From an uncultured virus (IMG/VR IMGVR_UViG_3300006920_000039) (Duplodnaviria; Heunggongvirae; Uroviricota; Caudoviricetes; Schitoviridae), in the IMG/VR virus record IMGVR_UViG_3300006920_000039: a stretch of DNA of 64,000 bases; one strand, given 5' to 3'. The notes below the pieces were generated by a model that saw only the letters and a program-made list of their open reading frames with translations, was not told the DNA's origin and searched no databases. Position numbers and translations under genes: made by a program. Shown one piece after another: positions 13,943 to 49,914 of the stretch (positions are counted from its first letter, which is position 1; every line of letters starts with the position of its first letter).

Positions 13943-16900
13943 ATGGTTTCCCCCTATTTTTCTGCGAATCCTGTGAGGAATTCCATGGCCGAAGTACCAG
14001 GCGTAAACCCCATCAACTCCGCATTCGACAAGATACTGGGGGAAGCCGGAATTGCTCCTGCTCCAAATATCACACCTGTGGCCCCCAATCAGCCGGGTGA
14101 CCTCGCATCGGAGACGCTTCGTCGCTTAGGCGCAAAGCCATCGGACAAGCAGAACAAGGTCAACGAGGTCTCCCGGGCCAAGCAGATTGTACTGGGCGGG
14201 CCGGATGCCCAACGTGATATTGCCGCGGCAGAACGAGGTGGGAACACTCTTTCAGAAGATCCGGTTGTACGTGATTTGCAGGACATGGACTTCGGTTCTC
14301 TGGTTCAAAAGTACGGCGAAGATGTTGCCCGGAACCGTTACAAACTGATCGAGGAAAAGCAGCGCTTCAATTCAAGCCTGGATGCTGGACGAACTGCTGA
14401 ACAACGTATCGGAGATACCCTCCTTGATGTTGGTTCCGGAGCAGCGGCAGCTGTCGGTGGTGTTGCAGGACTTGCGGTCGGTGCTGTGAATGAAAACGCT
14501 GGTACAGCGATCTCCCAAGGTGCGTCTTCATTGAGCCAGAGCCTGAAAGGGTTTCAGTCCAGTGAATTGAGTGAGCGAAGAGAGTCTTTCGGACGCCTCC
14601 AGAACCAAGACTCGGTCGATTCAAACAAGATCTATGACGCAATAGATGAGCCCACCATGACTGACGTTCTGGGAAAGTTCGGTCGGGACGTGGGGAATAC
14701 CTTTGCAAATATGGCCCAAGATCCGGCAATGGCGGGATCACTGGTCGGTGAGTCTGCTGGCTCCTTTGCGGTGCCACTGGCTCTTGGAAAGCTGGGGAGC
14801 CGTGTGGCTCCGACACTCTCACAAGGTGCTGTAACGACTGGCGCCATTGGTCTGACTGAATCTGGGGGCGTGTACTCACAGGCTGTCAACGAAGTCATGG
14901 GCATGAGCGAAGATGAGCTGTCTGTTGCCAGCGAAGCCTACAAAGAGATGCGCCGGCAAGGGGACACTCACGAAGAGGCACAACGAGGTGTCGCCAACGA
15001 TGCTGGTTTGCTGGGTGCTGCAGTGCAACTCCCTCTCGCAATCGTGGCTGGTAAAGCGGTTTCCCGTTTCCAGGCAAATCCTCTCAAGACAACTTCCTTG
15101 ACCCGGAGTTTGCAGGACATCGGCAAAGAGACGTTGGAAGAAGGTTTCCAGTCTGGAACCGGTGAACTGACGACTGACCTTGGTGTAAAGACCCAAGCTG
15201 ATAAATTCCGCCAAGTCGGTGACACGGTTGGTGAAGCTGTGGCCATGGGTGCCGTCGGTGGTGCTGGTATGGCTGCCACTTTGCAAGCGCCGGGACTTCT
15301 TCGTGACGGTGTCGTGGCAGGGGCAAAAGGAACTGTCAGAGCAGCTGGACGAGCTATTGATGGCCGGGTCCAAAGCATTGCAGCTGCTCAGGATGCCGCT
15401 TCTCCAGTTGGATCAGTGGCTCGAACTGAAGCAGTTGAAACAGCCAAGACAAGCCTAGCAGCGGTTGTTCAGAGCGAACCTATAGTTGCTGAAAGTGTCG
15501 AGACTGTAGAGGCAGAGACTGCCCAGAAGTCTCCTATGCAACGTGCCAAGGAAGCTTTGGTCATGACCGGGCCCGAGGTGAACGAGACACCTGATGCCGT
15601 GAAGCGATTGATAGCAGGCGAGGGGGAAGTGATCCCTGATGACCTGCAGGTCGATCGATTGGATGTGCTGTCAGGACTGCTGACTGAGATCGAGTCTGGA
15701 AACCAGTCCGCACAAGACACCGAGGCTGCGTCTCTCTGGCTCTATGAGCAGGCAAAAGCATTTGAGGCCCTGCGCAACGAGGACATGTCCAGCCTGCCTG
15801 CAGAGATCCAGGAGATGGCTGCTGCAAGCCAGGCTGCCGTGGATACGATACTGGCGAACCCGACACTGCAAAAGGCTGTAGAGCAAGCACAGAGCGCATC
15901 TTTCGAACCTGGCTCCCTGCCGGAGATAACCGACAGGAACATCAACAGCCCTGAGGTCAAGGATGCCTTGGCCCGGACCATTCAGATAGCCCAGTCGAAC
16001 CCTGCCGGCATTGATCCGAAGTTCGTTGATTCCATTCTGGATCAGCGCAGCAAGGGCAAGATCCAGTTCTCAGACAAGGTCATGAAACGTCTGGAAGCAG
16101 CGGCCGCTATCGCCAAAGAAGCCAACGCAGCTTCTGAAAAGAAGGAAGCCATGGTCGCCGAGACCACAGCTGTGATCCAAGCCCAACCAACGGGTGCGGG
16201 TAAACAGGCCCGAAAGACTGTCGACATCGTGCGCCGCGAAATCCTCACTGAAGGTAAAGACGATGAGGCTGGACAGATCGGCTTGTCCCGCCACCTTTCA
16301 GGCATCGTGACATCGCTGAACAATGGCGATCAACTCATGGCACAGCTTGCACTGGATAACCTCCGGAACTTTGGCGAGCACATGCAGAACAAAGTGAAGG
16401 CAGCCAGAGAGTCGTTTGCGCTTGGGAAATCCAAGAACAACACTGTGCCTTATCGCACATGGACTGGAGTTGCCTGGATTGAGGCCAACAAGGACAATGC
16501 AGGCAAGATAGGGATCAACGCAAACTCCCCGAATTCGATTCAGCTGGGAAAAGAAGCAGCGATCGACGCAGAGACTGTGTCCAATCTCTACAACAATCTG
16601 ATCACGATCTACGGCAGTGAGTTGACTGGTCAGGCTTTGCCACCGTTGCGTGAAGCTACACCGGCCCCTGCAGTTCAGGAAAATACCGAGAATGTAGCGG
16701 ACCCTGTTGAGGTTACTCCAGTAGAGACAACCGAGGTTGTGGATCAGATTGAGCCTGAAACGATTGTCAACGAAGCCGAGCCTGATGCGCTGGAGCTGGC
16801 CGACAACGAGACACGGACACAAGCTGACTTCGATGCGATGACCGATGACCAGTTACTGACTTCGGTTAATGGCTGGGAAGCTGACGTTGAGAGCCTGCCA

Positions 16901-19900
16901 ATGATCCCTCAGAGGGTTCAACAGGTGCGGGACGTAGTGAACCCTATCCTCGAAAGGTTCAATCTCGCCCCCTCACTTATTCGTCGGATAGCCTGGCTCG
17001 AGTCGCCAGAAAAAGATCATCTGGGTCAAGCTTACTGGACCGAGCGGGTGCTCTCTTTGAAGCCGTCTGTCTTGAAGAAGATGATTGCGGGTGTCGACAA
17101 AGATGGGATTCACGTTGCGTATCACGAGCTGATGCACATGATTGATGCGGCGGCCTCAAAGACCTTCGGCCGCACAGCATCCATGGAACAAAACGAGCTG
17201 ATGGTGGGTGGCAAAATACACGCAGAAGTCCTGGGACTTGTTGAATCAGACCCGGAAATGGCCGAGTATTTTGAATACGCTCTGGGTCAGGAAGACCCTG
17301 CAATTCTGGCTTCGGAACTCTTCGCTGAGATCGGCGCCCTAATGTTGCTCATCGACGCTGATGTAGCAAAAACACTGATGCCTAAAGGAGTAGCTTACGT
17401 TGAAGAAACCATCGGACAAGCCGGAGGAAAAATCCCTGCCGTCGAAGAAGCTGATGCGGGAACCAGTGCACCCGTCATCGAAGATACCCAAGGGCTTCCT
17501 GGAGAGACTGAGGAAGCTGCCACCCAAGAAGTAGTCCAAACTCAGGAGCAGCAGAATGTCGCAGTATCTGTCGAAGTCGGAGCAGAAAGCGAACAAGAGG
17601 TTGTTTCTCAGGAAATTACAGGAGAACAAATTGCTGAGGAAAGCGTCACGGAGAGCGTGTCGCAAAGCACTCCGGACCAAGATGAAGCGGGAACTGAACC
17701 AGCAAGTGACTCTGTCATTGCTGAACCCGGAAGAAGCCTCAGCTTTGATAACCTAGCCAAGACAGCCAAAGGCGTCGTTCGTTTCGTGCGGGCCTACACA
17801 GTCGACACCAAGAAGTCTCTGTTGATGCAAAGTGATAACCCGGCCCGGGGTGTTCTAGAGCTCCTTGGTTCCTACGAGACGTACCGGGATCAGCTGGCGC
17901 TGAACTACCGGATGGACCAAGACCAAATCAAAGCCTGGAACACGCTCATCGAACGCCAAGTCGGTGGCTTGGTCAATCGCATGAATGCGTCTCTGAAAAC
18001 CAAGAAGAAAGCTCTCAGCAGTGGAAAGCTGACACCGCTGGAAGCTCTGGCGCAAGACAAGGACTACACAGGCTTCCGTGAAACACGGGCCCTCAACTTG
18101 GTTGATCCAGAAGCAGAGGTGTACGATCCACGTTTGATCCAGGCAGCAGCACTGGCCGCCTTGCATTGGACGATGAACACATCCGGCAGCCGGAACAACT
18201 CTGCGGAGGAGGTCGCCAAGATATTTGGTGTCGAAGAAGACGCCGTGACACCAGGAATGATGCACGCTGCCAACTCTGGTCTGGGTGCAAATACTGCTGC
18301 TGAATCTCTCGCCAGAACCATCCGGGAATTCTGGGGTGTAACCACCAACAAAGATGCCCCTATGTCGGATACTTTGGGGATATCTCAGGCAATCGCTGCT
18401 GAACTGCTATCAGTCATGGACGGGCACTTGGTGACCAAGTCCACCTTCGAGCTTGAAATAGCCGAAACAGGCGTCACAGCAGATGCTATTTTCATTCAGC
18501 TGACGAACGAAACTTCTGCAGAGGTCATCGAGCAGCTGAAGGGAACACGTATGTTCCTGCAGGATGCGTTTCTCCCAGAAGCTGAGCGTGCGTTCTACTT
18601 TGATCAGACACCGGACGCTGTTCGCAAGAGCCAGAAGAACAACCCACTCGGCAAGCTTGGTGCGAAGATGACCAAGGCTCTGAGGCGGCACCAGGATATC
18701 GCGTTCATGCGGAACACGCCGTATCTCAATATGATGCAGGCGATCGGCCGGGAGACCTTTGGTGAGCTGATGGGCAAGCGGGTAATTGAAGAGACCCGGA
18801 TGAACAAAGTCGACGTGGTTTCGATCCAAGGCAAGAATAACTCTGTCGACTATTCCTGGAATGGAGTGGAAAGCCATAATGCTCAGCTGGAGGGCTATGC
18901 CGACAGAGAAGGCAAGAACCCCGACGAGGTAGAGACACACTTCGATTGGTATGTGGTCTCAAACGAACGTATCCATGCTGATGGCTTTAACCCCCAGTCG
19001 GACAAGACAATGCGGGAAGCTTTCGTCGCCACGGTATCGACGCTTGATATGACGACGGAGAAGGGCAGGGAGCTGTTCTGGCTCACTGTGGCCCAGTCCT
19101 CTGATCTGGTGAAGACAGAGAAAGAAGCCCGGGCCGACGGTATCGACATTGTCCAGGAGAAGATCTTCGAGAAATTCGGTGACTCGATCACTGTGATGGA
19201 GGAGTTCCTGGAAGCCGGAGGCGAGTTGAGCCAAGCCCAAAAAGACGTCCTTCTGGGTGAACTTGGCGGCGAAGGCACACCGAAAATCCTGCACGCCATT
19301 CTTTCAGTTGCCCAATATAACCTGGCTGTAGCGGAAGGTGGAGAAGCCCTGACAAGCTTCAAGCACAACCTCTCCCTCGAGGCAGACGGTAAAACCGACG
19401 GCCCGATCAATGCGATGATCCACTTCCTGACTGGGAAGTTTGATGCGTCACAGCTTTTGAACATGGCTAAGGGCGGGTTTTACCCCAACGAGCAGGGCAA
19501 GACCCTGAACGAATACATCAAAGGCGACAGCGTCGATCTGTACGAGACAGCGGCTGTGCTGTTCCAGAACGAACTTGCTAAGGTCCAGAAAAGTGTCATG
19601 GGGACAAAAGCCCAAGGGCACATGACGGCCGTAAACAACATCATGAACTACCTGATCAAAGACGCCAGCTTCAACGAGAAGGGCGAGTTGGTCATTGGGC
19701 GGGGCATCCTGAAGAACCCACTGACGGTGACCGTTTATGGCTCTGGAGTCAAAGGCATAGCCAACAAAGTTACTTCTGCGGTAACAGAGGTCCTGTACCA
19801 GAAGATGACCGAGCTGGAGCAGATGCGTGTCGATCTGGCAGACCCAAGCCTGCAGTTGTCGGACGTCCCAAGCCTGCAGAATTATCCCACACTGGCTAAA

Positions 19901-22900
19901 GACCTGACGATGTTGACCACAACCCGTGTGGGCAAGTCTCGCAAAGGGGGCAAAACCGAATGGTATGTCACTGACAAGGACTTCGATAAGAAGCGCCACC
20001 CTCTGGGGGACATCAACGATGGCGTCAATTTTCAGCTGAGCCGTGGAAATATGGCGATGCTGTCGACGAACCTGCAGAACCTGTTTGTGTCACCAATGAA
20101 CGCGGCCATTAAACAGATGATGGGCGGGACCCAGTCCACACTTGAAGTCTTCCAGAAGGCTACACAGGCTCAGTCTTTGATCCTGATCACGCGCTTCGAC
20201 AATGCCGTGCAAGAAGTCCTCAAAGAGAAGCGGGAAAAGGGTGAGCTGGGCGGCGCCGACTTCATGAGTGAGAATGATTATCAAGCTGTGTTCGACAAGA
20301 TGGCCAAGTTCGGGGCCGTGATCGCTCCGATCCAGAATGATGAGCACCACCTGAACCTCTCGAACAAAGCAGCATCGAAGTCGCAAGATGAATTCTTCCG
20401 GAGCATGGATAACGAATATTCCGGAAATGCAACGATCCCACGTCCAGCAGAAGCAGGCGTAAAAGTCTCTGCTCTTCTGACGATCTCCCGGGGTGACGCA
20501 AAGATGATGGTGAATTACTTCGCCAAGGAATCTCTGGATCCAACAGCACTGAAAACTCTACCTGTCTTTGACGGTCTGGAGATGCCTGCCGACGGCATCG
20601 ACACACTTTCAGCGTTGATCAACGAAGCCGTCTCTGATGCTTGGCTGGAAAACCCAGCACAGGATATGTCCGACAGCTTCACTGACTTTATGCGCCAGGA
20701 AAAAGACGGGCCATTGAAAGGGCTCGAGAGAAACAGCGAACTCTTGGGGGCACTCGTCAAGCTTCTTGGTGTGGACATCGGGGTCGGGGATCCGATCTCA
20801 GATATTACTGAGGAAATGGCGGGCATAAACGAGCGCATCGCTATCATTGCCCAGTCCATCCAGGCTCGAAAGAACGTCTACAAGCGGATCGGTTACTCGA
20901 TCGATCACATGGCATCTGGTGAGAACCCATTCTCGAAAGAGGGTGAGGTCATTGAAGGTGATCTCGTCGAGGGAATGAACCTGATGTATGACGAGGAGCT
21001 GGCAAAACTTAAGTCCGAAAAAGACATACAAACTTCGGACAGCGCCATTGAAAAACCTCTCCGGAAGTTCCGGGACCGCATTCGTGAAGTCGGCACAGAG
21101 GTCGGCGATGACGGACCTGGTCTGGTCAAAATGGATGTCGAAGGTGTGCGTGTTCTGATGAACAGCGACCTGACCAGCAAAGATAATCTGGTCTTGGTCA
21201 AGGCTGTGGCAGACGCCATGCCGGGATTCACCTTCTTCTTTGGTTCCTCCAAGAAGTTGACGGCTTTTCGGAATAAGAATTTCCCTGAGCGCAAAGGCTC
21301 CGGCGACATTCAGAACGGTCAGATAGACCTGCTGAACGGGGTGATCTACATCTCGAACCAGGCAGGCGAAACTGTCCTGCATGAGATGCTGCACGCTGCT
21401 TTGAGCAAGCAACTGCTGCAGTTCTACGATGATCCTTCACAGATGACTGAGACACAGCGGGCTGCCATTCAGAATCTGGAAAGCCTGATGGCCCAGTTCC
21501 AGACGATGGATTTCGCTGTTGATGGTCTGGAGACCAAAGAAGCAGCAGAGCTGGTGCAGGCTGAGATCACCAAATACCAAGGACAAGGCGGTGTGATTGG
21601 GAACGCTTCAGCGATGAACGAGTTCATTGCTTGGACACTGACGAACCAGAACCTGATCAATGCACTCCGTACGGCGCGGGTCCGTACACCTTTGCAGAAA
21701 CTGGTGGATGCCAGCCTGAAAGGTCTGCGGAAGTTGCTCGGCCTGTCCCCACAACAGTCCTTGGATATCTTCTCGAACATCGCCTTCAATACTGGAGCAT
21801 TGCTGGTATCTAACGACGTATCGTCAGGGGAGACTGCGACACCCCCGGGATTACTCCTCAATCAGGTCTCGGGCAAAACCTCAGACAGTCGCTTAAGAGG
21901 AATGATGTATGCCTTTGATCGCAAGATCGCATCGCACCTGAAAACAAGGGACCCGCTGAAGGTTGATTCGGAAGAACTGAAGATCACTGATCTGGCCAAC
22001 CATGCAGCAAACACCTTCATGAGTGCCGGGTTTGATATGGATGCCGAGCAGCTCTCAGCTTTCCGGAACATTCAGGCTGCCATGGCGTCGACGATGGAGT
22101 TCGACAACAAAGCACTGGTGCGTATCCAGAAGATCTTCGCCCACGTCACCAAGCAGTTGACGGTCGAGAGCTTCATGGACGAGCCCGATCTGAATGGTCA
22201 GCAAGATCGTTATACGGCGCAGCAGAAGTTCAACGTGCTCACTGGTAAATACGGCGTGGAGACAGATCTCGAGGGCCGCTCGAACCTGCTGGCTTCTTTC
22301 CTGGCTCTGAGCCAGGTGGACCCGCAGTTCCGGGAGACTCTTCGGATTCTAGCATTGCCAAAAGACCGGAATGTCTCATTCGATTCAATGGACGAGTTCC
22401 TTGAGTCAGCAGCAGACAGCGTTCTGAATACTTTGGCAACGTCGATCGCCGGAGAGGGACTTGGAAACAAGAGCACCCTGCTTTCTCTGGATCGCCTGAC
22501 GGCAGTTCTTTCTAAGATCGAAGCTGATGATCACACATTGGTGGAGAAGAAGTCACAGGCCCTGCTGAGCCAGGGAGACGCAGCCGGAGCTGGTTTCCTA
22601 TCGACCATTGGTGAGCGCCTTGGGGATTTCGCAGATGCCAAGACCCTGAAGGACCGAGCTGAGGGTCGCAGCAAGAACCGGGAAGTTCTGTGGGGGAGTG
22701 CTAGAATTCTCGCCTCGGCGGTAAATGCCAACAAAGGCAAAGCAATGGCCAATGCGACGGTCAGCCTCTTGAACGAGACCAAGAACATTCCTCGTGTCGT
22801 GTTGGAATTGATCAACGAAACCATCGGACAAACCGACGAGAACAAAGTCGTCTACGAGATGATCAACCGGGTGAAGTACGCGGTTTCAGGAATGCGTCAG

Positions 22901-25228
22901 GATTTCAGGGAGACACTGCCGCGGATTCTCACGGAGCAGTTCAGCCGCAAACTCACGAAGACAGAGTGGAGCCAGCTTCATATGGCTCTGGGTAAAACCG
23001 ACATCGCTGCTTTGGGGGAGACGTACACTGCTGAGCAGATCCGCAAGATTATCAATGATCCAGCTTATATGACCGAGGAGATCGAGAAGGCTGAGACTGA
23101 GGTCAGAAGCCAAGCTCCTAAGGTTGCCGACGATTACATCAGAAAAGCCCAAGAGCTTGCGGAGTTCATGATCAGCGGCAAGATCGCCTCGAACAACAAC
23201 AATCTGCTGCGGAATGCGGAAGCAATCTCGCGTCTGTTGGGAGAGGACAAGAAGGGAATGGTCACGACCAAGGCATCCATTGATGCAATTGATCGCCTGA
23301 CCACTCTGTACGCTGTGGCCAATCTGGAAAATGATACTCTGGTGGCAGTCAATAAGCTGTCAGCGACCGAAGCTGCCGGCATGGATTTCGTGACATATTA
23401 TCTGGCTGACCTTCGCCGGAACGAAGTCAAGAAGCAGTCGACGGATGCCGCAAGGCTGAACGGCTACAAAGGATACATCCCAAGCGAGAGCCGTGAAGGT
23501 GCCACGATGATGGTTGCCGATGACACTGAGTTCAATCGTCTAAAGTCTCTGGGATATACCCGTCTCGGCGATTACCAGGGATCGGGCTTTGAAGCAGGCA
23601 AGAAGGGCTATTACTTCTCCACCGTAGCGGGCAACAATCAGTACATGCAGGGAGCTCTCCAGACTGTGCAGATCTCGGCCATGGGTGTTGATCCAAGGAC
23701 CGGCCGCACTGTGACGGGTAAAACTGCAGGTCGTTTGGCAAATTCGGAAGTCGGGAATGTAAAACGGCGCCTGAAAGCAGGCCAGGGAGCTCGCAGGAGC
23801 TTCGGTGAGGCATTGATGCCAATCTATGACTCAACGGGCGAGGTCGTAGGCTACGAGCGTTCCATGGACCCAGATAAGATTGCCAGCCTTGATCCAAACA
23901 CCAGAGCCGATGAGATGATCGGTGCCTGGGCAGGACGTCAGGCTGAGGAAGAGCTTGCGCAAGAGTTCAACTTCATGCTGATCGACCGGGTCAAGGAGGT
24001 CTACGACCGTGACAGACGTCAGGGCCGCAAAGACGAATTCGTAAACCTGGCTGACCAGCAGAACTCAGACCCCGTTATCCGGGATGCCTGGAAGCTGGTT
24101 CCAATCGAAAGTCGTGAGTACATCGAGGATATTTTTGGCGAGGGTAATTTCCCTGTGCGCCGTGACATGCTGAACAATACAATCGGCTATCGTGAAGCCT
24201 CTATTGGGGATGCCTGGGTTGGGTTGTCTCGTCTGGATCCAAAGTCTCAGAAGCTGTTGACCGATACCATGACAGCTATCCTAGGACAGAACGCTTACAA
24301 GTACCTGAAAACAGCAGAGACCGCATGGCAAGCCGGTGTCTCGGTGGCAAAGAACACCATCGTGATCCGATCGGTGATTGTGCCTATCTCGAACATGGGC
24401 TCGAACTTCATGCAGCTCTTGGTGAATGGGGTTTCTCCTCGGGACATCCACAAGGGGATGACCACAAAGCTGGTGGAGATTGACCAGCATCTGAAGAACC
24501 TTAGCCGGGGTGTTGAGATCAAAGCCAACCTGGCTCGCTTCAGGGGCAACGACACCGAGACGCGGAAGCTGAAGACAGAGCTAAAATCACTGGAGGATTC
24601 CAGCAGGCGTATGTCTATCTGGCCTCTCATTGAAGCTGGTGAGTTCTCGACTATCTCCGAGGGCCTGACGGAAGCTGACGCTGCCATTGGCCAAGGTAAA
24701 TGGGTCGAGTGGATCCAAGAGAAAGCAGACAAGCTGCCGTCTAAATTGGGCACTGCCGGCCGCTATGCTGTCATCTCCCGGGACACAGCCTTGTTCAAGG
24801 GAATGGCTCGTGCAGTCCAGTATGGTGACTTCCTGGGCAAAGCAGTTTTGTACGATCATGTTAAGAAAAATGGAAAAGCCTCACATGAACAGGCGCTGGA
24901 GAAGATCACTGAGGAATTTGTGAACTACAACCTGCTGCCGGGTCGGACCCGCTCATATGCTGAGAGCATGGGCCTGACGTGGTTCTGGGCGTATAAGATC
25001 AGATCGATCAAGATTGCCCATCGTCATATTGTGAACAACCCATTGAGGGCTCTTCTGACGACATTGGGCGCTCCGATGTTGCCCGACATGCCAGGCATGT
25101 CTATGGGCTCTCCGATCACGGATAACGCATTGTCTGTGATAGCTGATGACCGTCTTGGGTATTCCGTCGGTCCTGGAATGTTGTTCAATGCGCCAGGTTT
25201 GAACCCTTGGGTCAACCTGACGAACTGA
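13943..25228 (+). CDS. Virion-encapsidated RNA polymerase (N4 gp50-like), 3761 aa
   Basis: T7-like motifs FNPQSDKTMRE, LEADGKTDGPINA (A), RGILKNPLTVTVYGSG (B), TLPVFDG (C); size and position. Confidence 0.97.
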   Translation: MVSPYFSANPVRNSMAEVPGVNPINSAFDKILGEAGIAPAPNITPVAPNQPGDLASETLRRLGAKPSDKQNKVNEVSRAKQIVLGGPDAQRDIAAAERGGNTLSEDPVVRDLQDMDFGSLVQKYGEDVARNRYKLIEEKQRFNSSLDAGRTAEQRIGDTLLDVGSGAAAAVGGVAGLAVGAVNENAGTAISQGASSLSQSLKGFQSSELSERRESFGRLQNQDSVDSNKIYDAIDEPTMTDVLGKFGRDVGNTFANMAQDPAMAGSLVGESAGSFAVPLALGKLGSRVAPTLSQGAVTTGAIGLTESGGVYSQAVNEVMGMSEDELSVASEAYKEMRRQGDTHEEAQRGVANDAGLLGAAVQLPLAIVAGKAVSRFQANPLKTTSLTRSLQDIGKETLEEGFQSGTGELTTDLGVKTQADKFRQVGDTVGEAVAMGAVGGAGMAATLQAPGLLRDGVVAGAKGTVRAAGRAIDGRVQSIAAAQDAASPVGSVARTEAVETAKTSLAAVVQSEPIVAESVETVEAETAQKSPMQRAKEALVMTGPEVNETPDAVKRLIAGEGEVIPDDLQVDRLDVLSGLLTEIESGNQSAQDTEAASLWLYEQAKAFEALRNEDMSSLPAEIQEMAAASQAAVDTILANPTLQKAVEQAQSASFEPGSLPEITDRNINSPEVKDALARTIQIAQSNPAGIDPKFVDSILDQRSKGKIQFSDKVMKRLEAAAAIAKEANAASEKKEAMVAETTAVIQAQPTGAGKQARKTVDIVRREILTEGKDDEAGQIGLSRHLSGIVTSLNNGDQLMAQLALDNLRNFGEHMQNKVKAARESFALGKSKNNTVPYRTWTGVAWIEANKDNAGKIGINANSPNSIQLGKEAAIDAETVSNLYNNLITIYGSELTGQALPPLREATPAPAVQENTENVADPVEVTPVETTEVVDQIEPETIVNEAEPDALELADNETRTQADFDAMTDDQLLTSVNGWEADVESLPMIPQRVQQVRDVVNPILERFNLAPSLIRRIAWLESPEKDHLGQAYWTERVLSLKPSVLKKMIAGVDKDGIHVAYHELMHMIDAAASKTFGRTASMEQNELMVGGKIHAEVLGLVESDPEMAEYFEYALGQEDPAILASELFAEIGALMLLIDADVAKTLMPKGVAYVEETIGQAGGKIPAVEEADAGTSAPVIEDTQGLPGETEEAATQEVVQTQEQQNVAVSVEVGAESEQEVVSQEITGEQIAEESVTESVSQSTPDQDEAGTEPASDSVIAEPGRSLSFDNLAKTAKGVVRFVRAYTVDTKKSLLMQSDNPARGVLELLGSYETYRDQLALNYRMDQDQIKAWNTLIERQVGGLVNRMNASLKTKKKALSSGKLTPLEALAQDKDYTGFRETRALNLVDPEAEVYDPRLIQAAALAALHWTMNTSGSRNNSAEEVAKIFGVEEDAVTPGMMHAANSGLGANTAAESLARTIREFWGVTTNKDAPMSDTLGISQAIAAELLSVMDGHLVTKSTFELEIAETGVTADAIFIQLTNETSAEVIEQLKGTRMFLQDAFLPEAERAFYFDQTPDAVRKSQKNNPLGKLGAKMTKALRRHQDIAFMRNTPYLNMMQAIGRETFGELMGKRVIEETRMNKVDVVSIQGKNNSVDYSWNGVESHNAQLEGYADREGKNPDEVETHFDWYVVSNERIHADGFNPQSDKTMREAFVATVSTLDMTTEKGRELFWLTVAQSSDLVKTEKEARADGIDIVQEKIFEKFGDSITVMEEFLEAGGELSQAQKDVLLGELGGEGTPKILHAILSVAQYNLAVAEGGEALTSFKHNLSLEADGKTDGPINAMIHFLTGKFDASQLLNMAKGGFYPNEQGKTLNEYIKGDSVDLYETAAVLFQNELAKVQKSVMGTKAQGHMTAVNNIMNYLIKDASFNEKGELVIGRGILKNPLTVTVYGSGVKGIANKVTSAVTEVLYQKMTELEQMRVDLADPSLQLSDVPSLQNYPTLAKDLTMLTTTRVGKSRKGGKTEWYVTDKDFDKKRHPLGDINDGVNFQLSRGNMAMLSTNLQNLFVSPMNAAIKQMMGGTQSTLEVFQKATQAQSLILITRFDNAVQEVLKEKREKGELGGADFMSENDYQAVFDKMAKFGAVIAPIQNDEHHLNLSNKAASKSQDEFFRSMDNEYSGNATIPRPAEAGVKVSALLTISRGDAKMMVNYFAKESLDPTALKTLPVFDGLEMPADGIDTLSALINEAVSDAWLENPAQDMSDSFTDFMRQEKDGPLKGLERNSELLGALVKLLGVDIGVGDPISDITEEMAGINERIAIIAQSIQARKNVYKRIGYSIDHMASGENPFSKEGEVIEGDLVEGMNLMYDEELAKLKSEKDIQTSDSAIEKPLRKFRDRIREVGTEVGDDGPGLVKMDVEGVRVLMNSDLTSKDNLVLVKAVADAMPGFTFFFGSSKKLTAFRNKNFPERKGSGDIQNGQIDLLNGVIYISNQAGETVLHEMLHAALSKQLLQFYDDPSQMTETQRAAIQNLESLMAQFQTMDFAVDGLETKEAAELVQAEITKYQGQGGVIGNASAMNEFIAWTLTNQNLINALRTARVRTPLQKLVDASLKGLRKLLGLSPQQSLDIFSNIAFNTGALLVSNDVSSGETATPPGLLLNQVSGKTSDSRLRGMMYAFDRKIASHLKTRDPLKVDSEELKITDLANHAANTFMSAGFDMDAEQLSAFRNIQAAMASTMEFDNKALVRIQKIFAHVTKQLTVESFMDEPDLNGQQDRYTAQQKFNVLTGKYGVETDLEGRSNLLASFLALSQVDPQFRETLRILALPKDRNVSFDSMDEFLESAADSVLNTLATSIAGEGLGNKSTLLSLDRLTAVLSKIEADDHTLVEKKSQALLSQGDAAGAGFLSTIGERLGDFADAKTLKDRAEGRSKNREVLWGSARILASAVNANKGKAMANATVSLLNETKNIPRVVLELINETIGQTDENKVVYEMINRVKYAVSGMRQDFRETLPRILTEQFSRKLTKTEWSQLHMALGKTDIAALGETYTAEQIRKIINDPAYMTEEIEKAETEVRSQAPKVADDYIRKAQELAEFMISGKIASNNNNLLRNAEAISRLLGEDKKGMVTTKASIDAIDRLTTLYAVANLENDTLVAVNKLSATEAAGMDFVTYYLADLRRNEVKKQSTDAARLNGYKGYIPSESREGATMMVADDTEFNRLKSLGYTRLGDYQGSGFEAGKKGYYFSTVAGNNQYMQGALQTVQISAMGVDPRTGRTVTGKTAGRLANSEVGNVKRRLKAGQGARRSFGEALMPIYDSTGEVVGYERSMDPDKIASLDPNTRADEMIGAWAGRQAEEELAQEFNFMLIDRVKEVYDRDRRQGRKDEFVNLADQQNSDPVIRDAWKLVPIESREYIEDIFGEGNFPVRRDMLNNTIGYREASIGDAWVGLSRLDPKSQKLLTDTMTAILGQNAYKYLKTAETAWQAGVSVAKNTIVIRSVIVPISNMGSNFMQLLVNGVSPRDIHKGMTTKLVEIDQHLKNLSRGVEIKANLARFRGNDTETRKLKTELKSLEDSSRRMSIWPLIEAGEFSTISEGLTEADAAIGQGKWVEWIQEKADKLPSKLGTAGRYAVISRDTALFKGMARAVQYGDFLGKAVLYDHVKKNGKASHEQALEKITEEFVNYNLLPGRTRSYAESMGLTWFWAYKIRSIKIAHRHIVNNPLRALLTTLGAPMLPDMPGMSMGSPITDNALSVIADDRLGYSVGPGMLFNAPGLNPWVNLTN

Positions 25229-38695: not shown

Positions 38696-38839
38696 AAAAT
38701 CACCGGTCGGTTGTTCATTATTTTGTACGATCAATGGATCAGGTTCGAAACAATGCAAAGGTTTGAATGTGGTTGTCAAGTAGGAGTTACAAAGAAATAT
38801 CAAATTGATAATGGGGGAAGAGGAGCCAAAAAGATCGCG

Positions 38840-38863
38840 GGGACCCGATTGGGACCCGCTTCG
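38840..38863. repeat. Left arm-type integrase binding repeats
   Basis: GGGACCCG at 38840 and 38851. Confidence 0.7.
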
Positions 38864-38940
38864 AGTGTTTTGGGGTGTTTTGGGCGTGCACTAAATGGCA
38901 CTTTATAACTGTAAAGTATGCCATATGTAGCACTGGCATA

Positions 38941-38988
38941 GCCCTCCGAAGGCAGAGGCCGGGCGTTCGAATCGCCCCGGGTGCACCA
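38941..38988 (+). mobile_element. attP core: 3' portion of tRNA-Arg(CCG)
   Basis: GCCCT-CCG-AAGGCAGAGGCCGGGCGTTCGAATCGCCCCGGGTGCACCA contains the anticodon loop, T arm, acceptor 3' strand and CCA; no 5' half upstream; 63 bp from the integrase stop. Confidence 0.9.
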
Positions 38989-39024
38989 ACAAAATAAGGC
39001 TTTTGAGAGACACCAGAGTTTCTG

Positions 39025-39044
39025 GGGACCCGCTTCGGGACCCG
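39025..39044. repeat. Right arm-type integrase binding repeats
   Basis: GGGACCCG at 39025 and 39037; GGGACCCGCTTCG is identical to 38851-38863. Confidence 0.7.
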
Positions 39045-39051
39045 GTTCAGC

Positions 39052-40149
39052 TCATTTTCGCCTGTTCAGGGCCGCTACAGCGGTCTTCTGATGGTCTGGA
39101 GAGTGGTGTCCGTAGACCTTTTGTATCGTCTCAATGGATGTGGAAAAGTAACCAGCTGTGTCCCAAGTGGTGGCGCCATTCTGGAGAGCCCAGGTGATTG
39201 CTGTGTGCTTGAGAGTGTGTGGAGTAACACCATCGAAGTTGATTTTGATGCCTTTGGCGGCCGCTAATTCAATAGCTATTTGGGTAGCGTTGGCCCATCC
39301 TTTTCGGATGTCACCGATCTGATGACCCTTGTGATCTTGGACGATCATTCGGCGATTGTTCTTAGATTGTATGCGTAAATAAGAGAGATACCTTGGGGGA
39401 AGACGTGCCGGTCTCTGCCGCTTTGCGGTCTCGAGTTTGCCCTGCGGCTTTCGATAGAGAACTCCGGTCTTTGTGTCGACATGCCCTCCGCTTTTGCTGG
39501 GGGTGTCTATGCGCATGGAGAGAATCGTCTGTTTTCGGCTGCCAGTATAGAGACCATGCAGGATGAACTGGGCCAGGTGCCGGCCGTCCGCCCTGAGATT
39601 CCTGGCTCCCTTCAGAAGCCATGCCGCCTCTTGACGAGTTAGCCAGCGCTCTTTGGGAGAAGGCGACGCAGGGAGTGTGACTTTGGGTGGTGTTACGAGA
39701 TAGCCCTCAGCGTGGCAGTAATTGAGAGCAGCCTGGAGAACATTCAGCTCTCGTCTGGTGGTGCCGGGTGAGGCGACAACACCGAAACGGGTCTTTCTAG
39801 AGCTGGAATACTTCCGGCATGTAGCACCAGTGATTATGGAAACTGGCTGGTCTCCCCAGAAACTATCCAAAGCATCAATTGCATACCCGATCCGTGCGGG
39901 ATCAGCGACATGAACTGCATGTTCTTTGGCGTAGATATCTAGGGCCCGGGAGATGGTGAGTTCTTGTGGGCCAACCGGAGTATTCGGTTGGTATTTCAGG
40001 TCGAGATACCTTGCTAGAGCTTCTTCAGCATCTTCGCGGATGTGCGTACCTGTCGATACTCGGGTCGTTCCGTCACGTATCTGCCAGTAGGGCTGCCGCC
40101 CTGAAACGGCTCTCCAAACGAGACGGGCGCTTTTTCTTTTTGCCGGCAT
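39052..40149 (-). CDS. int: Tyrosine recombinase (phage integrase)
   Basis: LYTGSRK (box I Arg), TPHTLKHTAITW (box II), VYGH (catalytic Tyr); adjacent to a tRNA-derived att site. Confidence 0.93.
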   Translation of the reverse strand: MPAKRKSARLVWRAVSGRQPYWQIRDGTTRVSTGTHIREDAEEALARYLDLKYQPNTPVGPQELTISRALDIYAKEHAVHVADPARIGYAIDALDSFWGDQPVSIITGATCRKYSSSRKTRFGVVASPGTTRRELNVLQAALNYCHAEGYLVTPPKVTLPASPSPKERWLTRQEAAWLLKGARNLRADGRHLAQFILHGLYTGSRKQTILSMRIDTPSKSGGHVDTKTGVLYRKPQGKLETAKRQRPARLPPRYLSYLRIQSKNNRRMIVQDHKGHQIGDIRKGWANATQIAIELAAAKGIKINFDGVTPHTLKHTAITWALQNGATTWDTAGYFSTSIETIQKVYGHHSPDHQKTAVAALNRRK

Positions 40150-40307
40150 AATTCCATCAGCTTTTGAACATCACTCTCGAGCAGACGGAAGTTCCGCCCA
40201 ATTCGTATGGTGAAGCCGTGTTCATCCGCTACCTTACGGAGGCTGTCAACGGAAACACCGAGATGCCTGGCCACAGATGTGAACTTGTGAACGACTGGAA
40301 GTGCCAT
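40014..40307 (-). CDS. xis: Excisionase-like HTH protein
   Basis: SVARHLGVSVDSLRK HTH plus IRIGRNFRL wing; AGGAG RBS; overlaps the int 5' end. Confidence 0.7.
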   Translation of the reverse strand: MALPVVHKFTSVARHLGVSVDSLRKVADEHGFTIRIGRNFRLLESDVQKLMELCRQKEKAPVSFGEPFQGGSPTGRYVTERPEYRQVRTSAKMLKKL

Positions 40308-40311
40308 CAGA

Positions 40312-40599
40312 TCAGCTCCTTGCCTGGGCTTTTTCGTGAGCAGCCCATGCAGCATCCCGGTTGTTTTCCGGTGTTACTTTCTGGTTCTCAATGTGGCTGC
40401 GAGAAGCCGCACCACGGATGTTGTTAACCTCGACACGGGATTTCTCTGCGATGTCATGGATCAAACCAATCTCATCACGTCGAATCCACAGCCGGGGCAG
40501 TGGGATGTACCCAGCCTTACGCAGAGCGTAAGCAACTGGGTTCTTTGCTTGCATTTCAGAATCGATCACGGTGGGTTCCTCGTTAAATGTAGGGAGCAA
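40312..40599 (-). CDS. Hypothetical protein
   Basis: 95-aa ORF filling the gap upstream of xis; start uncertain. Confidence 0.55.
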   Translation of the reverse strand: MLPTFNEEPTVIDSEMQAKNPVAYALRKAGYIPLPRLWIRRDEIGLIHDIAEKSRVEVNNIRGAASRSHIENQKVTPENNRDAAWAAHEKAQARS

Positions 40600-47726: not shown

Positions 47727-48938
47727 TTAGGATAGGGCGTAGTCCGCTTTGCGCACCTTTGAGGCGATGTCGCCTGCTTTCACAATAGGTAGATAATTAC
47801 CTAGAATCTGAGAAGCGATGTAAGAAAGCAACTCTGATGCAGCGATGTCTGCCAGTATCTCATTATACTGTTGACGCAAATCGTTGCCCTTATTCGGGGA
47901 AACCCGGAAGCAGTCATGGATAGAAATGACCGGGAAGGGTGTGTCAGGGAGAGATTTGATCAAATCCTTGATTGCCGTAGGGTCAACGTGACCCATATTC
48001 TCAGCATCCAGGTGGTCAAGGATACGAGCTGAAAGGAAGCCCGAAGTCTTGTAGCGAGCCCAGATAGTCTGGACCATGGTGTCTTGCTTGCGTCCTGTTC
48101 TGGTTCCCCATTCCCAACCATGCTTTTCCTGCTTGAGGATGGACATGATAAGAATCTGAAGAGTGTCTTGGTTGTAGGAACAACGACGGTGCATTTCACG
48201 GACGATCATTCCATCGATCGAGTGGACGATGTTCGGAGAGATGCTTTTGCCTTCCTTGGTTCCGATGTTCTCATTGGTCGTGACTGCCACCGGCTCGTTC
48301 AGAAACTGAACATACTTGGTGACAGGAGTGAGGACTGGGATGTGGACGTTGAAGTTGTCCGGCATCACCCAGTCATGGGAGAGGGCATCAGCCTGCCATA
48401 GCTGCTGCAGCGCATGGTTAAGAGCCCATGCACCTGGCGCCATTTTCTCCATGGTCTCGTAGAAGACCTTGAGCAATTCACCCTCACCGAAGACCTGCTT
48501 TGGCACAGCAGTGGATGAGTAGAGGGACGTCATAATGGCCTGCTTGGTGTCGTCGTGGCTGATCTTGGCAGTGTCGCCAATCTCATCGCACATAGCCTTG
48601 TAGATAAGCTTGTAGGCGTCTTCACGGTTGCCCGAGTTGACGACGTTGCAGAGCCGTGCGCTGTCCTCACAGCCTGTCAGGCAGGAGAGGAGCTGCAAAC
48701 CTGAAGCAGTGGCGTCGAGAGAGATGGCATAGCCAGTTGCTTGGCCCTTCTGAGCTTTGCGGTAGGCTTGAACACCTGCGAAATACATCGCTGGTTCTTC
48801 AGCCTGGCTCACGAGAGTTTCGAGGTCTGCTTCATTGCTGTCAGCCCAAGCGAGACGCTCGTCCCATGTGGATTTGCCAAGGCCAAAGTTAGAAGCAATA
48901 TCGATCTTGAGGTATTCGATTCCAGTGAAAGTTTGCAT
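47727..48938 (-). CDS. RNA polymerase II subunit 2 (N4 gp16-like)
   Basis: EYLKIDIASNFG, LDATASGLQ (motif A), KQAIMTSLY (B), NIVHSIDG, IHDCF (C). Confidence 0.93.
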   Translation of the reverse strand: MQTFTGIEYLKIDIASNFGLGKSTWDERLAWADSNEADLETLVSQAEEPAMYFAGVQAYRKAQKGQATGYAISLDATASGLQLLSCLTGCEDSARLCNVVNSGNREDAYKLIYKAMCDEIGDTAKISHDDTKQAIMTSLYSSTAVPKQVFGEGELLKVFYETMEKMAPGAWALNHALQQLWQADALSHDWVMPDNFNVHIPVLTPVTKYVQFLNEPVAVTTNENIGTKEGKSISPNIVHSIDGMIVREMHRRCSYNQDTLQILIMSILKQEKHGWEWGTRTGRKQDTMVQTIWARYKTSGFLSARILDHLDAENMGHVDPTAIKDLIKSLPDTPFPVISIHDCFRVSPNKGNDLRQQYNEILADIAASELLSYIASQILGNYLPIVKAGDIASKVRKADYALS

Positions 48939-49074
48939 GATAATGCTCCTAGATTTGAGGTTGATTAGAGGTTGCGTATGCACACCGATGGGATGCTGGA
49001 CAGCTGTCGCACCCGGTCACGACCACCATCGTCCCAGTTTACATCCTGAACGGTGACGGCGTGATACGTGATGG

Positions 49075-49914
49075 TCATGCTGCGATCTCTTTCTTGAGTT
49101 CGACACCTGTGATGATTTCTTCATCAGCAAACTCGATCACTGCTTTGTTCCAGTCGTTCCCTTGTGTGTTCACATGGTAACCCTGGGCATAGCAGCGGCC
49201 GCGCTTGTCGTATCGGTGTGTGAGGTGAAACTCGTTACCCGCCATGAAGAGATGCTCCATGACGTCACGAGATGTACGATCGTATTTCTGGAAGTTCCGG
49301 ACTTTGAGCGACCACTCCTTGTTGGTCTCGTTTGGTCCTTGTTGGTAGATGCCGGCCCATTCGTTCTGGATCATGCGAGCAGTTTCAGGATTGATGCACA
49401 GCTTCACCTGGTTCGCTCTGTTGATGTGATCGAGGCAGACGTCATCGTCGTGGTGGTTGTTCTTCAGCAAGATGGAGGCCTTGGAGGTGATGTAACCGGT
49501 GTCACGGTTGGTCTTCACTTCACGGGGCTCAATGACCATCGGGAGAGGATACTGGTATCTCTCGAGGTCGGCGTGTGTCTCTGCGGAGACGTCGATCAGC
49601 ATGATGAACTGTCTGGCCATCTCATCCCAGCGGATCAGATTTACTTCTGATGCTTTGACGAGCATGTCGGCGCAGTCCTGGAAGGCAGACTCTCCCGTCC
49701 CGAAGTGACGGTTGAGGATACCAACCAACATGCCCACAGTGGCCCGCTTGTGCAGGACCATCTGTGACAGGAGGTCGAGTGCGAAATCCAGCGGGATGCC
49801 AGATTCTACACAATGGTCGACGATGATAGGATCACGGAACTCAGACTTGAGCCGTGGCATTGTCTCATTCTTGTTGAAGAGCTTTTCAAGCTCGATCTGG
49901 TTCTGGATGTCCAT
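49075..49914 (-). CDS. RNA polymerase II subunit 1 (N4 gp15-like)
   Basis: YQYPLPMVIEP, HDDDVCLDHIN, THRYDKRGRCYAQGYHVNTQG. Confidence 0.93.
   Translation of the reverse strand: MDIQNQIELEKLFNKNETMPRLKSEFRDPIIVDHCVESGIPLDFALDLLSQMVLHKRATVGMLVGILNRHFGTGESAFQDCADMLVKASEVNLIRWDEMARQFIMLIDVSAETHADLERYQYPLPMVIEPREVKTNRDTGYITSKASILLKNNHHDDDVCLDHINRANQVKLCINPETARMIQNEWAGIYQQGPNETNKEWSLKVRNFQKYDRTSRDVMEHLFMAGNEFHLTHRYDKRGRCYAQGYHVNTQGNDWNKAVIEFADEEIITGVELKKEIAA

What the first reader, a model, noticed from the sequence alone, without database searches (positions are those of the whole stretch)
38840..40307. Complete lysogeny module (xis-int-attP) in an N4-like phage with a virion RNA polymerase
Seen: an uninterrupted tyrosine integrase, an upstream HTH/xis-like gene and an att site, embedded among N4-type middle genes (thyX on one side; MazG-like and helicase on the other). 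Known: N4-like phages are regarded as essentially lytic, with early transcription depending on injected vRNAP. Inference: this is a temperate N4-like phage, seen in excised or virion form because attP is intact and phage genes flank both sides.
Basis: partly seen in the sequence, partly recalled or inferred. Interest (0 to 1): 0.92.

Follow-up and report, generated by a model that had tools for sequence, protein, structure and literature searches.

The report
N4-like phage with integration module
A freshwater N4-like phage carries an intact integrase, a small partner gene and a complete attachment site copied from a tRNA-Arg gene, so it can probably insert into its host's chromosome, although no inserted copy was found and such phages were already described in 2023.

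Summary
Window 38840-40307 contains an uninterrupted 365-aa tyrosine integrase (39052-40149, minus strand). A helix-turn-helix gene (40014-40307) overlaps its start. The attachment site consists of the last 48 nt of an alphaproteobacterial tRNA-Arg(CCG) (38942-38989) between two tandem pairs of GGGACCCG repeats. All of it lies inside the replication genes of an N4-like phage with a 3761-aa virion RNA polymerase.

The same tRNA/int/HTH layout sits at tRNA genes in Rhodobacterales chromosomes, with tRNA-Arg(CCG) next to int in 25 of 80 loci. The integrase is 34% identical over its full length to that of the temperate Rhizobium phage 16-3. Contigs from several metagenome runs, at least one from an independent study, bridge the module into phage genes on both sides, so it is not a chimera.

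Lysogeny itself is not shown:
- None of the 80 integrase loci is N4-like.
- None of 401 Rhodobacteraceae genomes holds a full vRNAP.
- No attL/attR junction contig and no repressor were found.

Integrase-bearing N4-like genomes and proviruses were published in 2023 (PMC10654107), and this scan noted a similar case on other DNA. Verdict: a real, well-formed new member of a known kind, of moderate interest.

The parts
38840..38863 (+). P arm: tandem pair of arm-type repeats (GGGACCCGATTGG / GGGACCCGCTTCG), 79-102 nt left of the core
   Evidence: Searches place the repeats. The same layout, a tandem 8-mer pair 85-105 nt left of the distal 46-nt repeat, occurs in three complete 10-11 kb islands of the integrase family (L079, L082, L085).
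38942..38989 (+). attP core / identity block: 3' 48 nt of tRNA-Arg(CCG), running from the anticodon stem through the anticodon loop CTCCGAA and the T arm to the acceptor 3' strand and CCA
   Evidence: Read directly and compared with 30 tRNA-Arg(CCG) genes from the bacterial loci. The Rfam tRNA model gives 24.9 bits, below the gathering score of 29. ARAGORN finds no complete tRNA.
39025..39049 (+). P' arm: second tandem pair of the same repeat (GGGACCCGCTTCG / GGGACCCGGTTCA), 36-60 nt after the tRNA 3' end and abutting the int stop codon
   Evidence: Searches place the repeats. Analogous paired 8-mers lie between tRNA and int in the bacterial loci.
39052..40149 (-). Tyrosine integrase, 365 aa, of the phage 16-3 type. 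It has an N-terminal three-strand-plus-helix domain (a candidate arm-binding domain), a core-binding domain and a catalytic domain. Residues R205, K243, H311, K314 (in place of Arg II) and Y346 are invariant in the family.
40014..40307 (-). HTH_17 / excisionase-family gene, 97 aa, a candidate recombination directionality factor. The HTH lies at aa 12-52. A basic tail is encoded in an alternative frame over the first 136 nt of int.
   Evidence: Searches give the domain matches. A homolog lies directly upstream of int in 42 of 80 bacterial loci. The tail frame stays open for 42-72 codons in 42 of 43 homologs.
13943..25228 (+). Virion RNA polymerase (3761 aa), the N4-like hallmark gene that gives the context
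   Evidence: phrog_2206 at 2259.8 bits.
47727..49914 (-). Two subunits of the N4-type RNA polymerase II. They are the probable transcriber of the minus-strand block that contains HTH and int; this is inferred.
   Evidence: phrog_2051 at 1.2e-156 and phrog_2166 at 2.9e-91.

Best explanation
The window is most of an uncultured N4-like (Schitoviridae-type) phage of about 75 kb from fresh water. Its host is probably an alphaproteobacterium, most likely one of the Rhodobacterales. Between its thymidylate-synthase and NTP-pyrophosphatase genes it carries a complete site-specific integration module of the Rhizobium phage 16-3 type.

Proposed mechanism:
1. The injected linear genome circularises.
2. 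Int, expressed with the middle (replication) genes, binds the four arm-type repeats with its N-terminal domain and the tRNA-like core with its core-binding and catalytic domains.
3. Int recombines attP with the 3' half of the host tRNA-Arg(CCG) gene. The phage-borne 48 nt rebuild an intact tRNA.
4. The overlapping HTH_17 protein acts as excisionase and directs the reverse reaction.

What is shown: the anatomy, the homology and the excised configuration. What is inferred: recombination activity, circularisation, RDF function, and any stable prophage state. How a prophage would silence or restart a programme that normally starts from an injected RNA polymerase is unknown.
For: 1. The int and HTH ORFs are intact. 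The family's invariant residues R205, K243, H311, K314 and Y346 are all present (invariant in 23 of 23 aligned sequences).
2. Int is 34% identical over its full length to 16-3 Int (E 5e-53). In the 16-3 record, xis overlaps int and an annotated functional attP with a tRNA 3' fragment follows int on the opposite strand, the same geometry as here.
3. In 80 bacterial loci with Int relatives, a tRNA gene lies within 600 nt of the int 3' end, on the opposite strand, in 40: Arg(CCG) 25, Thr(GGT) 10, Pro(CGG) 5. This includes 10 of the 17 closest loci (L007-L023; 54-65% identity), which carry tRNA-Arg(CCG).
4. The 48-nt fragment keeps a perfectly paired T stem (GGGCG/CGCCC) and the acceptor strand CGGGTGC, which complements the common 5' strand GCACCCG. 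It would therefore rebuild a working tRNA.
5. Both arms carry tandem repeat pairs at the same distances as in three complete islands bounded by 46-nt direct repeats. A P arm next to the core is expected only in an excised attP.
6. Contigs bridge MazG-attP-int-HTH-orf95 in run X4, from a study other than the possible source runs (37974-40694, one difference). They also bridge in X1 and X2.
7. int has GC 53.7% and GC3 53.8%, close to the phage average of 52.6% GC. The 17 closest bacterial homologs have GC 58-70% and GC3 63-87%, which argues against a very recent capture.
8. Circumstantial: three further metagenome contigs probably carry an Int of this family together with N4-type helicase or H-NS-like genes. 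The link rests on identical source, contig count and contig length, with congruent pairwise identities.
Against: - No integrated N4-like copy was found. 0 of 80 Int loci shares any other window gene apart from a 141-215-aa piece resembling the vRNAP C-terminus in two of them.
- phrog_2206 gives only partial hits in 9 of 401 Rhodobacteraceae genomes, and four of these have no other N4 genes within about 20 kb.
- 0 of 79 other IMG/VR N4-like loci has this Int within 10 kb of the helicase.
- The JGI metagenome scan returned only the same phage.
- No attL/attR contig was seen. Only short bacterial tRNA unitigs match 38941-38986. Contigs cannot show rare forms.
- No repressor-like protein was detected among the window ORFs scanned: 14 and 40 proteins with Pfam, 10 and 57 with PHROGs.
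- Arg II of the catalytic set is Lys (HTLKHT), where 16-3 Int has Arg.
- The Pfam, HTH_17 and TIGR01764 matches are all below their curated cut-offs.
- The exact 48-nt core is not present in the 401 genomes searched; the best two differ at 2 positions.
- The Int tree does not place the putative phage-borne integrases in one exclusive clade.
Confidence: 0.55

Rival explanations
1. The cassette is captured but idle. The phage picked up a ready-made attP-int-HTH module by recombination with an excised island or prophage of its host. The genes are carried and may be expressed, but the phage stays obligately lytic because it has no way to shut down the vRNAP-driven programme.
For: - The module is a shared cassette among unlike elements. 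Of the 51 ORFs scanned (out of 99 ORFs of at least 100 aa listed from 8 loci), some neighbours are prophage-like (L020, L011, L017) and others have no phage hits at all (L014, L008).
- No N4-like prophage was found.
- No repressor was found.
- It sits in a variable slot, where phage ort11 has rIIA/rIIB instead.
Against: Both ORFs, all four arm repeats and a base-paired tRNA fragment are intact. The composition of int matches the phage rather than Rhodobacterales. Related integrases probably occur in other members of the same N4-like clade.
Confidence: 0.3
2. The module acts on the host tRNA-Arg(CCG) site without founding a classical prophage. Examples would be transient integration in a carrier state, or competition with resident islands that use the same attB.
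For: The same attB class is heavily used by islands in Rhodobacterales: 25 of 80 loci. HTH and int lie inside the lytic middle-gene block on the same strand with almost no intergenic space, and no sigma-70-like promoter was found in 38100-41000.
Against: This is pure inference and nothing in the sequence points to it specifically. The simple promoter scan has low power.
Confidence: 0.1
3. The module is an assembly chimera, or an independent element inserted into the phage with boundaries of its own.
For: GC3 is lower across 37495-40599 than in the flanking core genes.
Against: - Contigs from at least two studies run through both boundaries.
- Identical arrangements occur in two IMG/VR records and one JGI contig.
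- Only one copy of the tRNA fragment exists in 37800-41200, so there is no attL/attR pair inside the phage.
- ORFs are packed end to end on the HTH side.
Confidence: 0.03

Closest known systems
Integration module of the temperate Rhizobium phage 16-3 (int, xis, attP; record DQ500118.1)
   Same: The integrases are homologous over their full length (34% identity, E 5e-53). An upstream gene overlaps the int start. attP lies directly after the int stop, with a tRNA 3' fragment on the opposite strand. Five bacterial relatives in the same family sit at tRNA-Pro(CGG). From memory, not from a call, that is the 16-3 target.
   Different: The target here is tRNA-Arg(CCG). Arg II is Lys (HTLKH against HTLRH in 16-3). 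The upstream gene is an HTH_17 protein with no detectable similarity to 16-3 Xis. The carrier is an N4-like podovirus, whereas 16-3 is not filed under Schitoviridae in its record.
Integrase-bearing N4-like uncultured genomes and integrated N4-like proviruses (mSystems 2023, PMC10654107; passages read)
   Same: An N4-like backbone with a vRNAP plus an integrase. Freshwater members are mentioned. The paper already draws the conclusion that some N4-like viruses may be lysogenic.
   Different: In the passages I read, that paper catalogues marker genes and proviral regions (mostly in Moraxella) and describes no att site. 'tRNA' occurs once in the main text, in the context of host matching. Here the attP, its arms, the tRNA target and the integrase family are defined. 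I could not establish whether this phage is among their 54 genomes: Table S4 is hosted elsewhere and not held, and the record number of the near-identical IMG/VR contig is absent from the 4 held supplement files.
Sinorhizobium phage ort11 (Huelvavirus, Schitoviridae), the nearest cultured backbone
   Same: The gene order is the same: VWA/metallopeptidase, thymidylate synthase, NTP-PPase, helicase, DNA polymerase. The helicase is 51% identical.
   Different: Where the window has orf114, orf95, HTH, int and attP, ort11 has rIIA and rIIB. No integrase is annotated in the 19 kb of ort11 that I examined.
Rhodobacterales genomic islands and prophages at tRNA-Arg(CCG), tRNA-Thr(GGT) and tRNA-Pro(CGG)
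   Same: The same Int family (36-65% identity). A homolog of the HTH gene lies directly upstream of int in 42 of 80 loci. The tRNA geometry matches. Identity blocks of 46-48 nt start at the anticodon stem-loop, and tandem arm repeats lie on both arms.
   Different: These elements are integrated, their cargo is not N4-like, and their GC content is much higher.
Another temperate-looking N4-like phage noted earlier in this scan (e1-5848082)
   Same: An N4-like phage with an integrase, an excisionase and an attP-like site at a tRNA gene.
   Different: It is on other DNA and targets tRNA-Leu. No sequence similarity to this integrase is indexed. Its follow-up reported inserted relatives, which I did not find for this phage.

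Membership tests
Tyrosine recombinase / phage integrase superfamily | Tyrosine nucleophile and Arg I, in a catalytic domain with the recombinase fold | tested here: met
   Y346 and R205 are invariant in 23 of 23 sequences. The model (mean pLDDT 83.5) matches XerA, lambda Int, Tn1549 Int, HP1 Int and P2 Int; 37 chains score E <= 0.001. PHROG_1 integrase scores E 2.3e-31.
Tyrosine recombinase / phage integrase superfamily | Canonical box II H-x-x-R (Arg II) and a His/Trp III about 22-23 residues later | tested here: not met
   The box II motif is H311-T-L-K314, and the Lys is invariant in 23 of 23 sequences. The position aligned to His III is T337, from the phmmer alignment to a XerC-like chain. 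16-3 Int has Arg II but Met at the His III position. Which residues form the canonical set is recalled knowledge.
Tyrosine recombinase / phage integrase superfamily | Passes the curated Pfam PF00589 threshold | tested here: not met
   19.4 bits against a cut-off of 27.1. In the precomputed annotation, only a minority of the homologs carry PF00589.
Heterobivalent (lambda-type) integrases with arm-type sites | A separate N-terminal arm-binding domain, plus repeated arm sites on both sides of the core | tested here: inconclusive
   The model has strands at 9-13, 21-26 and 29-32 followed by a helix at 38-52, ahead of the core-binding helices. Full-length lambda Int aligns over 365 columns. Tandem repeats lie on both arms. 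Binding was not tested.
Phage 16-3-type integration module | Int homologous to 16-3 Int, with an attP carrying a tRNA 3' fragment directly downstream of int | tested here: met
Phage 16-3-type integration module | Xis homologous to 16-3 Xis | tested here: not met
   No BLASTP alignment at E <= 100. Only the position and the overlap with int are shared.
Excisionase-family HTH (Pfam HTH_17 / TIGR01764) | A profile match above the curated threshold | tested here: inconclusive
   The window protein scores 22.2 bits (cut-off 27) and 20.2 bits (cut-off 28.8). 12 of 20 aligned family members hit HTH_17 at E <= 0.01, the best at 1.5e-6. The best PDB match by profile is 4j2n Gp37 at E 0.1.
N4-like phages (Schitoviridae) | A giant virion RNA polymerase, a two-subunit RNAP II, and N4-type DNA polymerase, primase, SSB, portal and capsid genes | tested here: met
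   The nearest cultured relatives are Schitoviridae.
Temperate phage | Integrated copies (prophages) in host genomes | tested here: not met
   0 of 80 Int loci is N4-like. 0 of 401 sampled Rhodobacteraceae genomes has a full vRNAP. No junction contigs were seen. These searches cover samples only, so absence is not shown.
Temperate phage | An immunity repressor or lysis-lysogeny switch | tested here: not met
   No repressor or anti-repressor family was found among the ORFs scanned with Pfam and PHROGs. Novel repressors cannot be excluded.
Temperate phage | Inducible lysogens | not testable with these tools
   The phage is uncultured.

The most novel reading that the evidence does not exclude
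A subclade of freshwater N4-like phages may stably keep tRNA-targeting integration modules of the 16-3 type and swap their tRNA specificity: Arg(CCG) here, and a Thr(GGT)-associated integrase clade in the probable 72-kb, 17-kb and 15-kb relatives. If so, genuine lysogeny exists in a phage type whose infection normally starts from an injected RNA polymerase. With a defined attP, attB and Int, the question of how such a prophage is silenced and restarted would become directly testable.
Probability: 0.35. Interest if true: 0.6.

Novelty: new member of a known kind. Interest (0 to 1): 0.4.

Why it matters
N4-like phages begin infection with a polymerase carried in the virion. A prophage of this kind would therefore need an unknown route both to stay silent and to restart. 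This phage offers a compact, fully delimited module for testing the first step, integration, in laboratory alphaproteobacteria: about 1.5 kb comprising attP with four arm sites, Int and an overlapping HTH gene.

It also shows that one integration cassette is shared between Rhodobacterales islands, prophages and an N4-like phage. The integrase family conserves Lys in place of the second catalytic Arg.

The general claim that some N4-like phages carry integrases has been in print since 2023, so the gain here is in detail, not in concept.

Tried and rejected
**Close relatives in phage collections**
- Megablast and blastn of the region against 50,697 phage records found no match.
- The window's own assembly is not held. 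I used the near-identical virus record G001 instead.
- An IMG/VR scan with Int gave 5 loci. Only the same phage is N4-like.
- An IMG/VR scan with the helicase alone gave 3 loci, two of them the same phage.
- A JGI metagenome scan with Int gave 11 loci. One is the same phage and the rest are not N4-like.

**Search for an N4-like prophage**
- A vRNAP profile run over 401 Rhodobacteraceae genomes gave only pieces, in 9 genomes.
- The surroundings of four of these (up to 40 kb each) hold no other window gene.

**Host attB**
- The exact 48-nt core is not in 401 genomes. Two match with 2 mismatches.

**Read laying**
- All four runs are kept as contigs, so starts, ends and rare junctions cannot be seen.
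- Run X5 has no cover at 39005-39171, and its contig ends inside the tRNA fragment. A gap of this kind proves nothing.
- A loose end in X4 before 38941 (more than 255 nt, unlike a tRNA 5' half) does not continue past the tRNA-like core, judging by depth in the next bin. I read it as another element or tRNA, not as attL of this phage.

**Other dead ends**
- The sigma-70 promoter scan of 38100-41000 found none. Three terminator-like sites were found, no more than in shuffles.
- Cluster look-up gave no accession numbers that could confirm that Int and helicase share contigs.
- The careful IQ-TREE run did not finish, so the quick tree was used.
- A search for PurZ next to the MazZ-like gene found nothing in the window.
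- The idea that the vRNAP-like pieces next to Int in L007 and L014 are relics of N4-like prophages was considered and left open. Orientation fits, but nothing else from the phage is there.
Full report
**What is there**

The window is an N4-like phage.
- A 3761-aa ORF (13943-25228, +) matches the virion RNA polymerase family phrog_2206 at 2259.8 bits.
- The two subunits of an N4-type RNA polymerase II lie at 47727-49914.
- DNA polymerase, primase, SSB, portal and major head protein are all present.
- The nearest cultured relatives by helicase are Sinorhizobium phage ort11 and other Schitoviridae of Alphaproteobacteria, at 48-51% identity.
- The window's own assembly is not held. A 46.7-kb IMG/VR record (G001) carries an identical integrase.

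The finding's interval sits inside the minus-strand replication block. Its contents, left to right:

| Coordinates | Feature |
|---|---|
| 36153-37460 | helicase |
| 37495-37782 | DksA/TraR-like zinc finger |
| 37882-38199 | H-NS-like gene |
| 38201-38803 | MazG-like pyrophosphatase |
| 38804-39051 | 248-nt gap holding attP |
| 39052-40149 | int |
| 40014-40307 | HTH gene |
| up to 40962 | two small ORFs |
| 40917-41924 | thyX |

**The integrase**

The ORF is uninterrupted.
- Its Pfam PF00589 match is below threshold (19.4 against 27.1 bits).
- PHROG_1 'integrase' scores E 2.3e-31.
- 902 homologs were found. The named ones among the 120 listed are almost all Rhodobacterales, at 52-70% identity.
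- An AlphaFold model built from 23 sequences (mean pLDDT 83.5) matches XerA, full-length lambda integrase (365 aligned columns) and Tn1549 integrase at E about 1e-7.
- The model has a small N-terminal sheet-plus-helix domain ahead of the core-binding helices. That is the layout of integrases that also bind arm sites. The comparison with lambda's N domain rests on recalled knowledge.

In the 23-sequence alignment, R205, K243, H311, K314 and Y346 are invariant. The box II motif reads HTLKHT, so Lys replaces the second catalytic Arg. The temperate Rhizobium phage 16-3 integrase, 34% identical over the full length (E 5e-53), has HTLRHT. The substitution defines the family rather than marking decay.

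**The partner gene**

The HTH domain (aa 12-52) matches HTH_17 and the TIGR01764 excisionase domain, both below their cut-offs. Of 20 aligned relatives, 12 hit HTH_17 at E <= 0.01.

A homolog lies directly upstream of int in 42 of 80 bacterial loci.

The ORF does not stop at the int start codon. It runs 44 further codons in another frame over the first 136 nt of int. The equivalent tail is open for 42-72 codons in 42 of 43 homologs, and in one locus (L046) the HTH is fused in frame to Int.

In phage 16-3 the annotated xis also overlaps int. The two proteins show no sequence similarity. I read the gene as a candidate recombination directionality factor. This is inferred.

**The attachment site**

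ARAGORN finds no tRNA gene in the window. The Rfam tRNA model scores 38921-38985 just below its gathering score (24.9 against 29 bits).

Read against 30 tRNA-Arg(CCG) genes from the bacterial loci, 38942-38989 is the last 48 nt of that tRNA. It covers three bases of the anticodon stem, the loop CTCCGAA, the variable region, a perfectly paired T arm, the acceptor 3' strand and CCA.

GGGACCCG occurs five times in the 64 kb, against 1.85 expected by shuffling. Four of the copies form two tandem pairs 11-12 nt apart, at 38840/38851 and 39025/39037, one pair on each side of the tRNA fragment.

**Comparison with integrated elements**

A scan of one genome per prokaryotic species returned 80 loci with relatives of the integrase.
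- In 40 of them a tRNA gene lies within 600 nt of the int 3' end on the opposite strand: tRNA-Arg(CCG) 25, tRNA-Thr(GGT) 10, tRNA-Pro(CGG) 5. This is the geometry seen in the window.
- Between tRNA and int these loci carry paired 8-mers of the same kind as the window's.
- In three tRNA-Thr islands the whole element is in view (L079, L082, L085). Each is 10-11 kb and bounded by a 46-nt direct repeat of the tRNA 3' part.
- In all three, a tandem CCGCACAG-type pair lies about 30-50 nt after the tRNA and another 85-105 nt to the left of the distal repeat.

The window has both pairs next to a single core. That is what the excised, circular-form attP of such an element should look like. Only one copy of the tRNA fragment exists in 37800-41200, so the module is not itself an element integrated into the phage.

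**Not an artefact**

Nine freshwater metagenome runs from six studies hold the stretch.
- Laid contigs run through the module into phage genes on both sides in X2 (36500-41106) and X1 (36500-39693). Either of these may be the source sample.
- The same is true in X4, from another study (37974-40694, one difference).
- int has the phage's composition (GC 53.7%, GC3 53.8%). Its 17 closest bacterial homologs have GC 58-70% and GC3 63-87%.

**What is missing for 'temperate'**

- None of the 80 loci shares any other of 73 window ORFs at E <= 1e-5. The exception is a 141-215-aa gene resembling vRNAP residues 3380-3591 in L007 and L014.
- The vRNAP profile found only fragments in 9 of 401 sampled Rhodobacteraceae genomes. 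Nothing N4-like lies around the four I examined.
- None of 79 other IMG/VR N4-like loci has this integrase within 10 kb of the helicase.
- The JGI metagenome scan gave only the same phage.
- No junction contig appeared, though contigs drop rare forms.
- No repressor family was detected.
- The exact attB core was not found in the 401 genomes.

**A possible wider lineage (inference)**

Three integrase homologs share source, contig count and longest-contig length with N4-type genes found in separate searches:

| Integrase | Partner gene | Contigs | Length (bp) | Source |
|---|---|---|---|---|
| P0017 | helicase P0217 | 3 | 72,454 | Logan |
| P0011 | helicase P0185 | 1 | 16,995 | ENA |
| P0067 | H-NS-like P0164 | 1 | 14,724 | Logan |

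Pairwise identities are congruent. The Int pair P0011/P0017 is 72% identical, and each is 64% identical to the window. The helicase pair is 77% identical, and 61% and 56% to the window.

I built a quick IQ-TREE of 95 integrases. These were the 94 of the 120 listed sequences with lengths of 340-400 aa, plus P0067. The careful run did not finish. The tree places those three integrases in a well-supported 17-row clade that also contains a chromosomal Tabrizicola integrase next to tRNA-Thr. The window's integrase falls in an unresolved neighbouring group. If the links are real, N4-like phages of this clade carry integrases of more than one tRNA specificity. The contigs could not be fetched.

**Donors**

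I scanned 51 of 99 ORFs of at least 100 aa upstream of int in eight loci. Some neighbours are phage-like: a DnaB-type helicase, exonuclease VIII, a tail completion protein and a DarB-like protein. Others have no phage hits. The cassette therefore travels between unlike elements.

**What is known already**

PMC10654107 (mSystems 2023; passages read) reports:
- 54 N4-like uncultured genomes and proviruses with integrase, transposase or DGR;
- 40 integrated proviral regions, mostly in Moraxella;
- lysogenic members from marine, freshwater and other habitats.

In the passages I read it describes no att site. Its Table S4 is hosted externally and could not be seen. The record number of the near-identical IMG/VR contig is not in the four held supplement files, so I cannot say whether this phage is in their set.

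Literature searches for N4-like or Schitoviridae with integrase, lysogeny or prophage terms turned up no other paper describing a temperate N4-like phage among the listings I saw.

**Verdict**

The module is real, complete and of a known, experimentally studied type, and it is carried by an N4-like phage in the excised form.

I put integration competence at about 0.55-0.6 and a true temperate life cycle somewhat lower. It is a new member of a known kind, of moderate interest.

Noticed in passing
window 24080-24715 (vRNAP aa 3380-3591); L007 2490-3122; L014 8409-8831: A stand-alone gene of 141-215 aa is 55-65% identical to a C-terminal stretch of the window's vRNAP. In two Rhodobacterales islands it lies 1.2-1.4 kb from integrases of the same family, at tRNA-Arg(CCG). 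Nine of 401 Rhodobacteraceae genomes hold only pieces of the vRNAP profile. This could be a relic of N4-like prophages or a module shared by giant virion proteins; the question is unresolved. No Pfam domain was found.
   Followed up: partly
window 39052-40149 (Int residue K314): The whole integrase family has Lys in place of the second catalytic Arg (HTLKHT, invariant in 23 of 23 sequences). The related phage 16-3 integrase has Arg at that position.
   Followed up: partly
window 40014-40149; loci L005-L076: The HTH gene continues in an alternative frame over the 5' end of int. That frame is open for 42-72 codons in 42 of 43 homologs, with a conserved basic motif. In L046 the HTH is fused in frame to the integrase.
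   Followed up: partly
window 37882-38199 (-): A phage-encoded protein carries an H-NS C-terminal DNA-binding domain (PF00816, 34.3 bits, above the cut-off). Its homologs share contig lengths with N4-type helicase homologs in at least 11 cases, so it appears to be a backbone gene of this N4-like clade.
   Followed up: partly
window 37495-37782 (-): A DksA/TraR-like C4 zinc-finger protein (phrog_54, E 3e-10) lies between the H-NS-like gene and the helicase.
   Followed up: no
window 62623-63470 (+): An HD-domain protein with a weak YfbR-like match is followed by a dATP/dGTP diphosphohydrolase N-terminal domain protein (PF18909, E 5.6e-31). By recalled knowledge, such a pair accompanies PurZ in phages that replace adenine with 2-aminoadenine. 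No PurZ-like gene was found in the ORFs I scanned. The window ends at 64000, with an ORF still open.
   Followed up: partly
window 63470-63820 (+): A small protein with a RyR domain (PF02026, E 4.6e-12).
   Followed up: no
window 37495-40599: A block of genes (DksA-like, H-NS-like, MazG-like, int, HTH, orf95) has GC3 of 0.46-0.56. The flanking core replication genes have 0.61-0.69.
   Followed up: no
window 38941, run X4: One low-depth contig matches only the tRNA-like core and continues to the left for more than 255 nt with sequence unlike a tRNA 5' half. It is probably another element with a similar att core.
   Followed up: no
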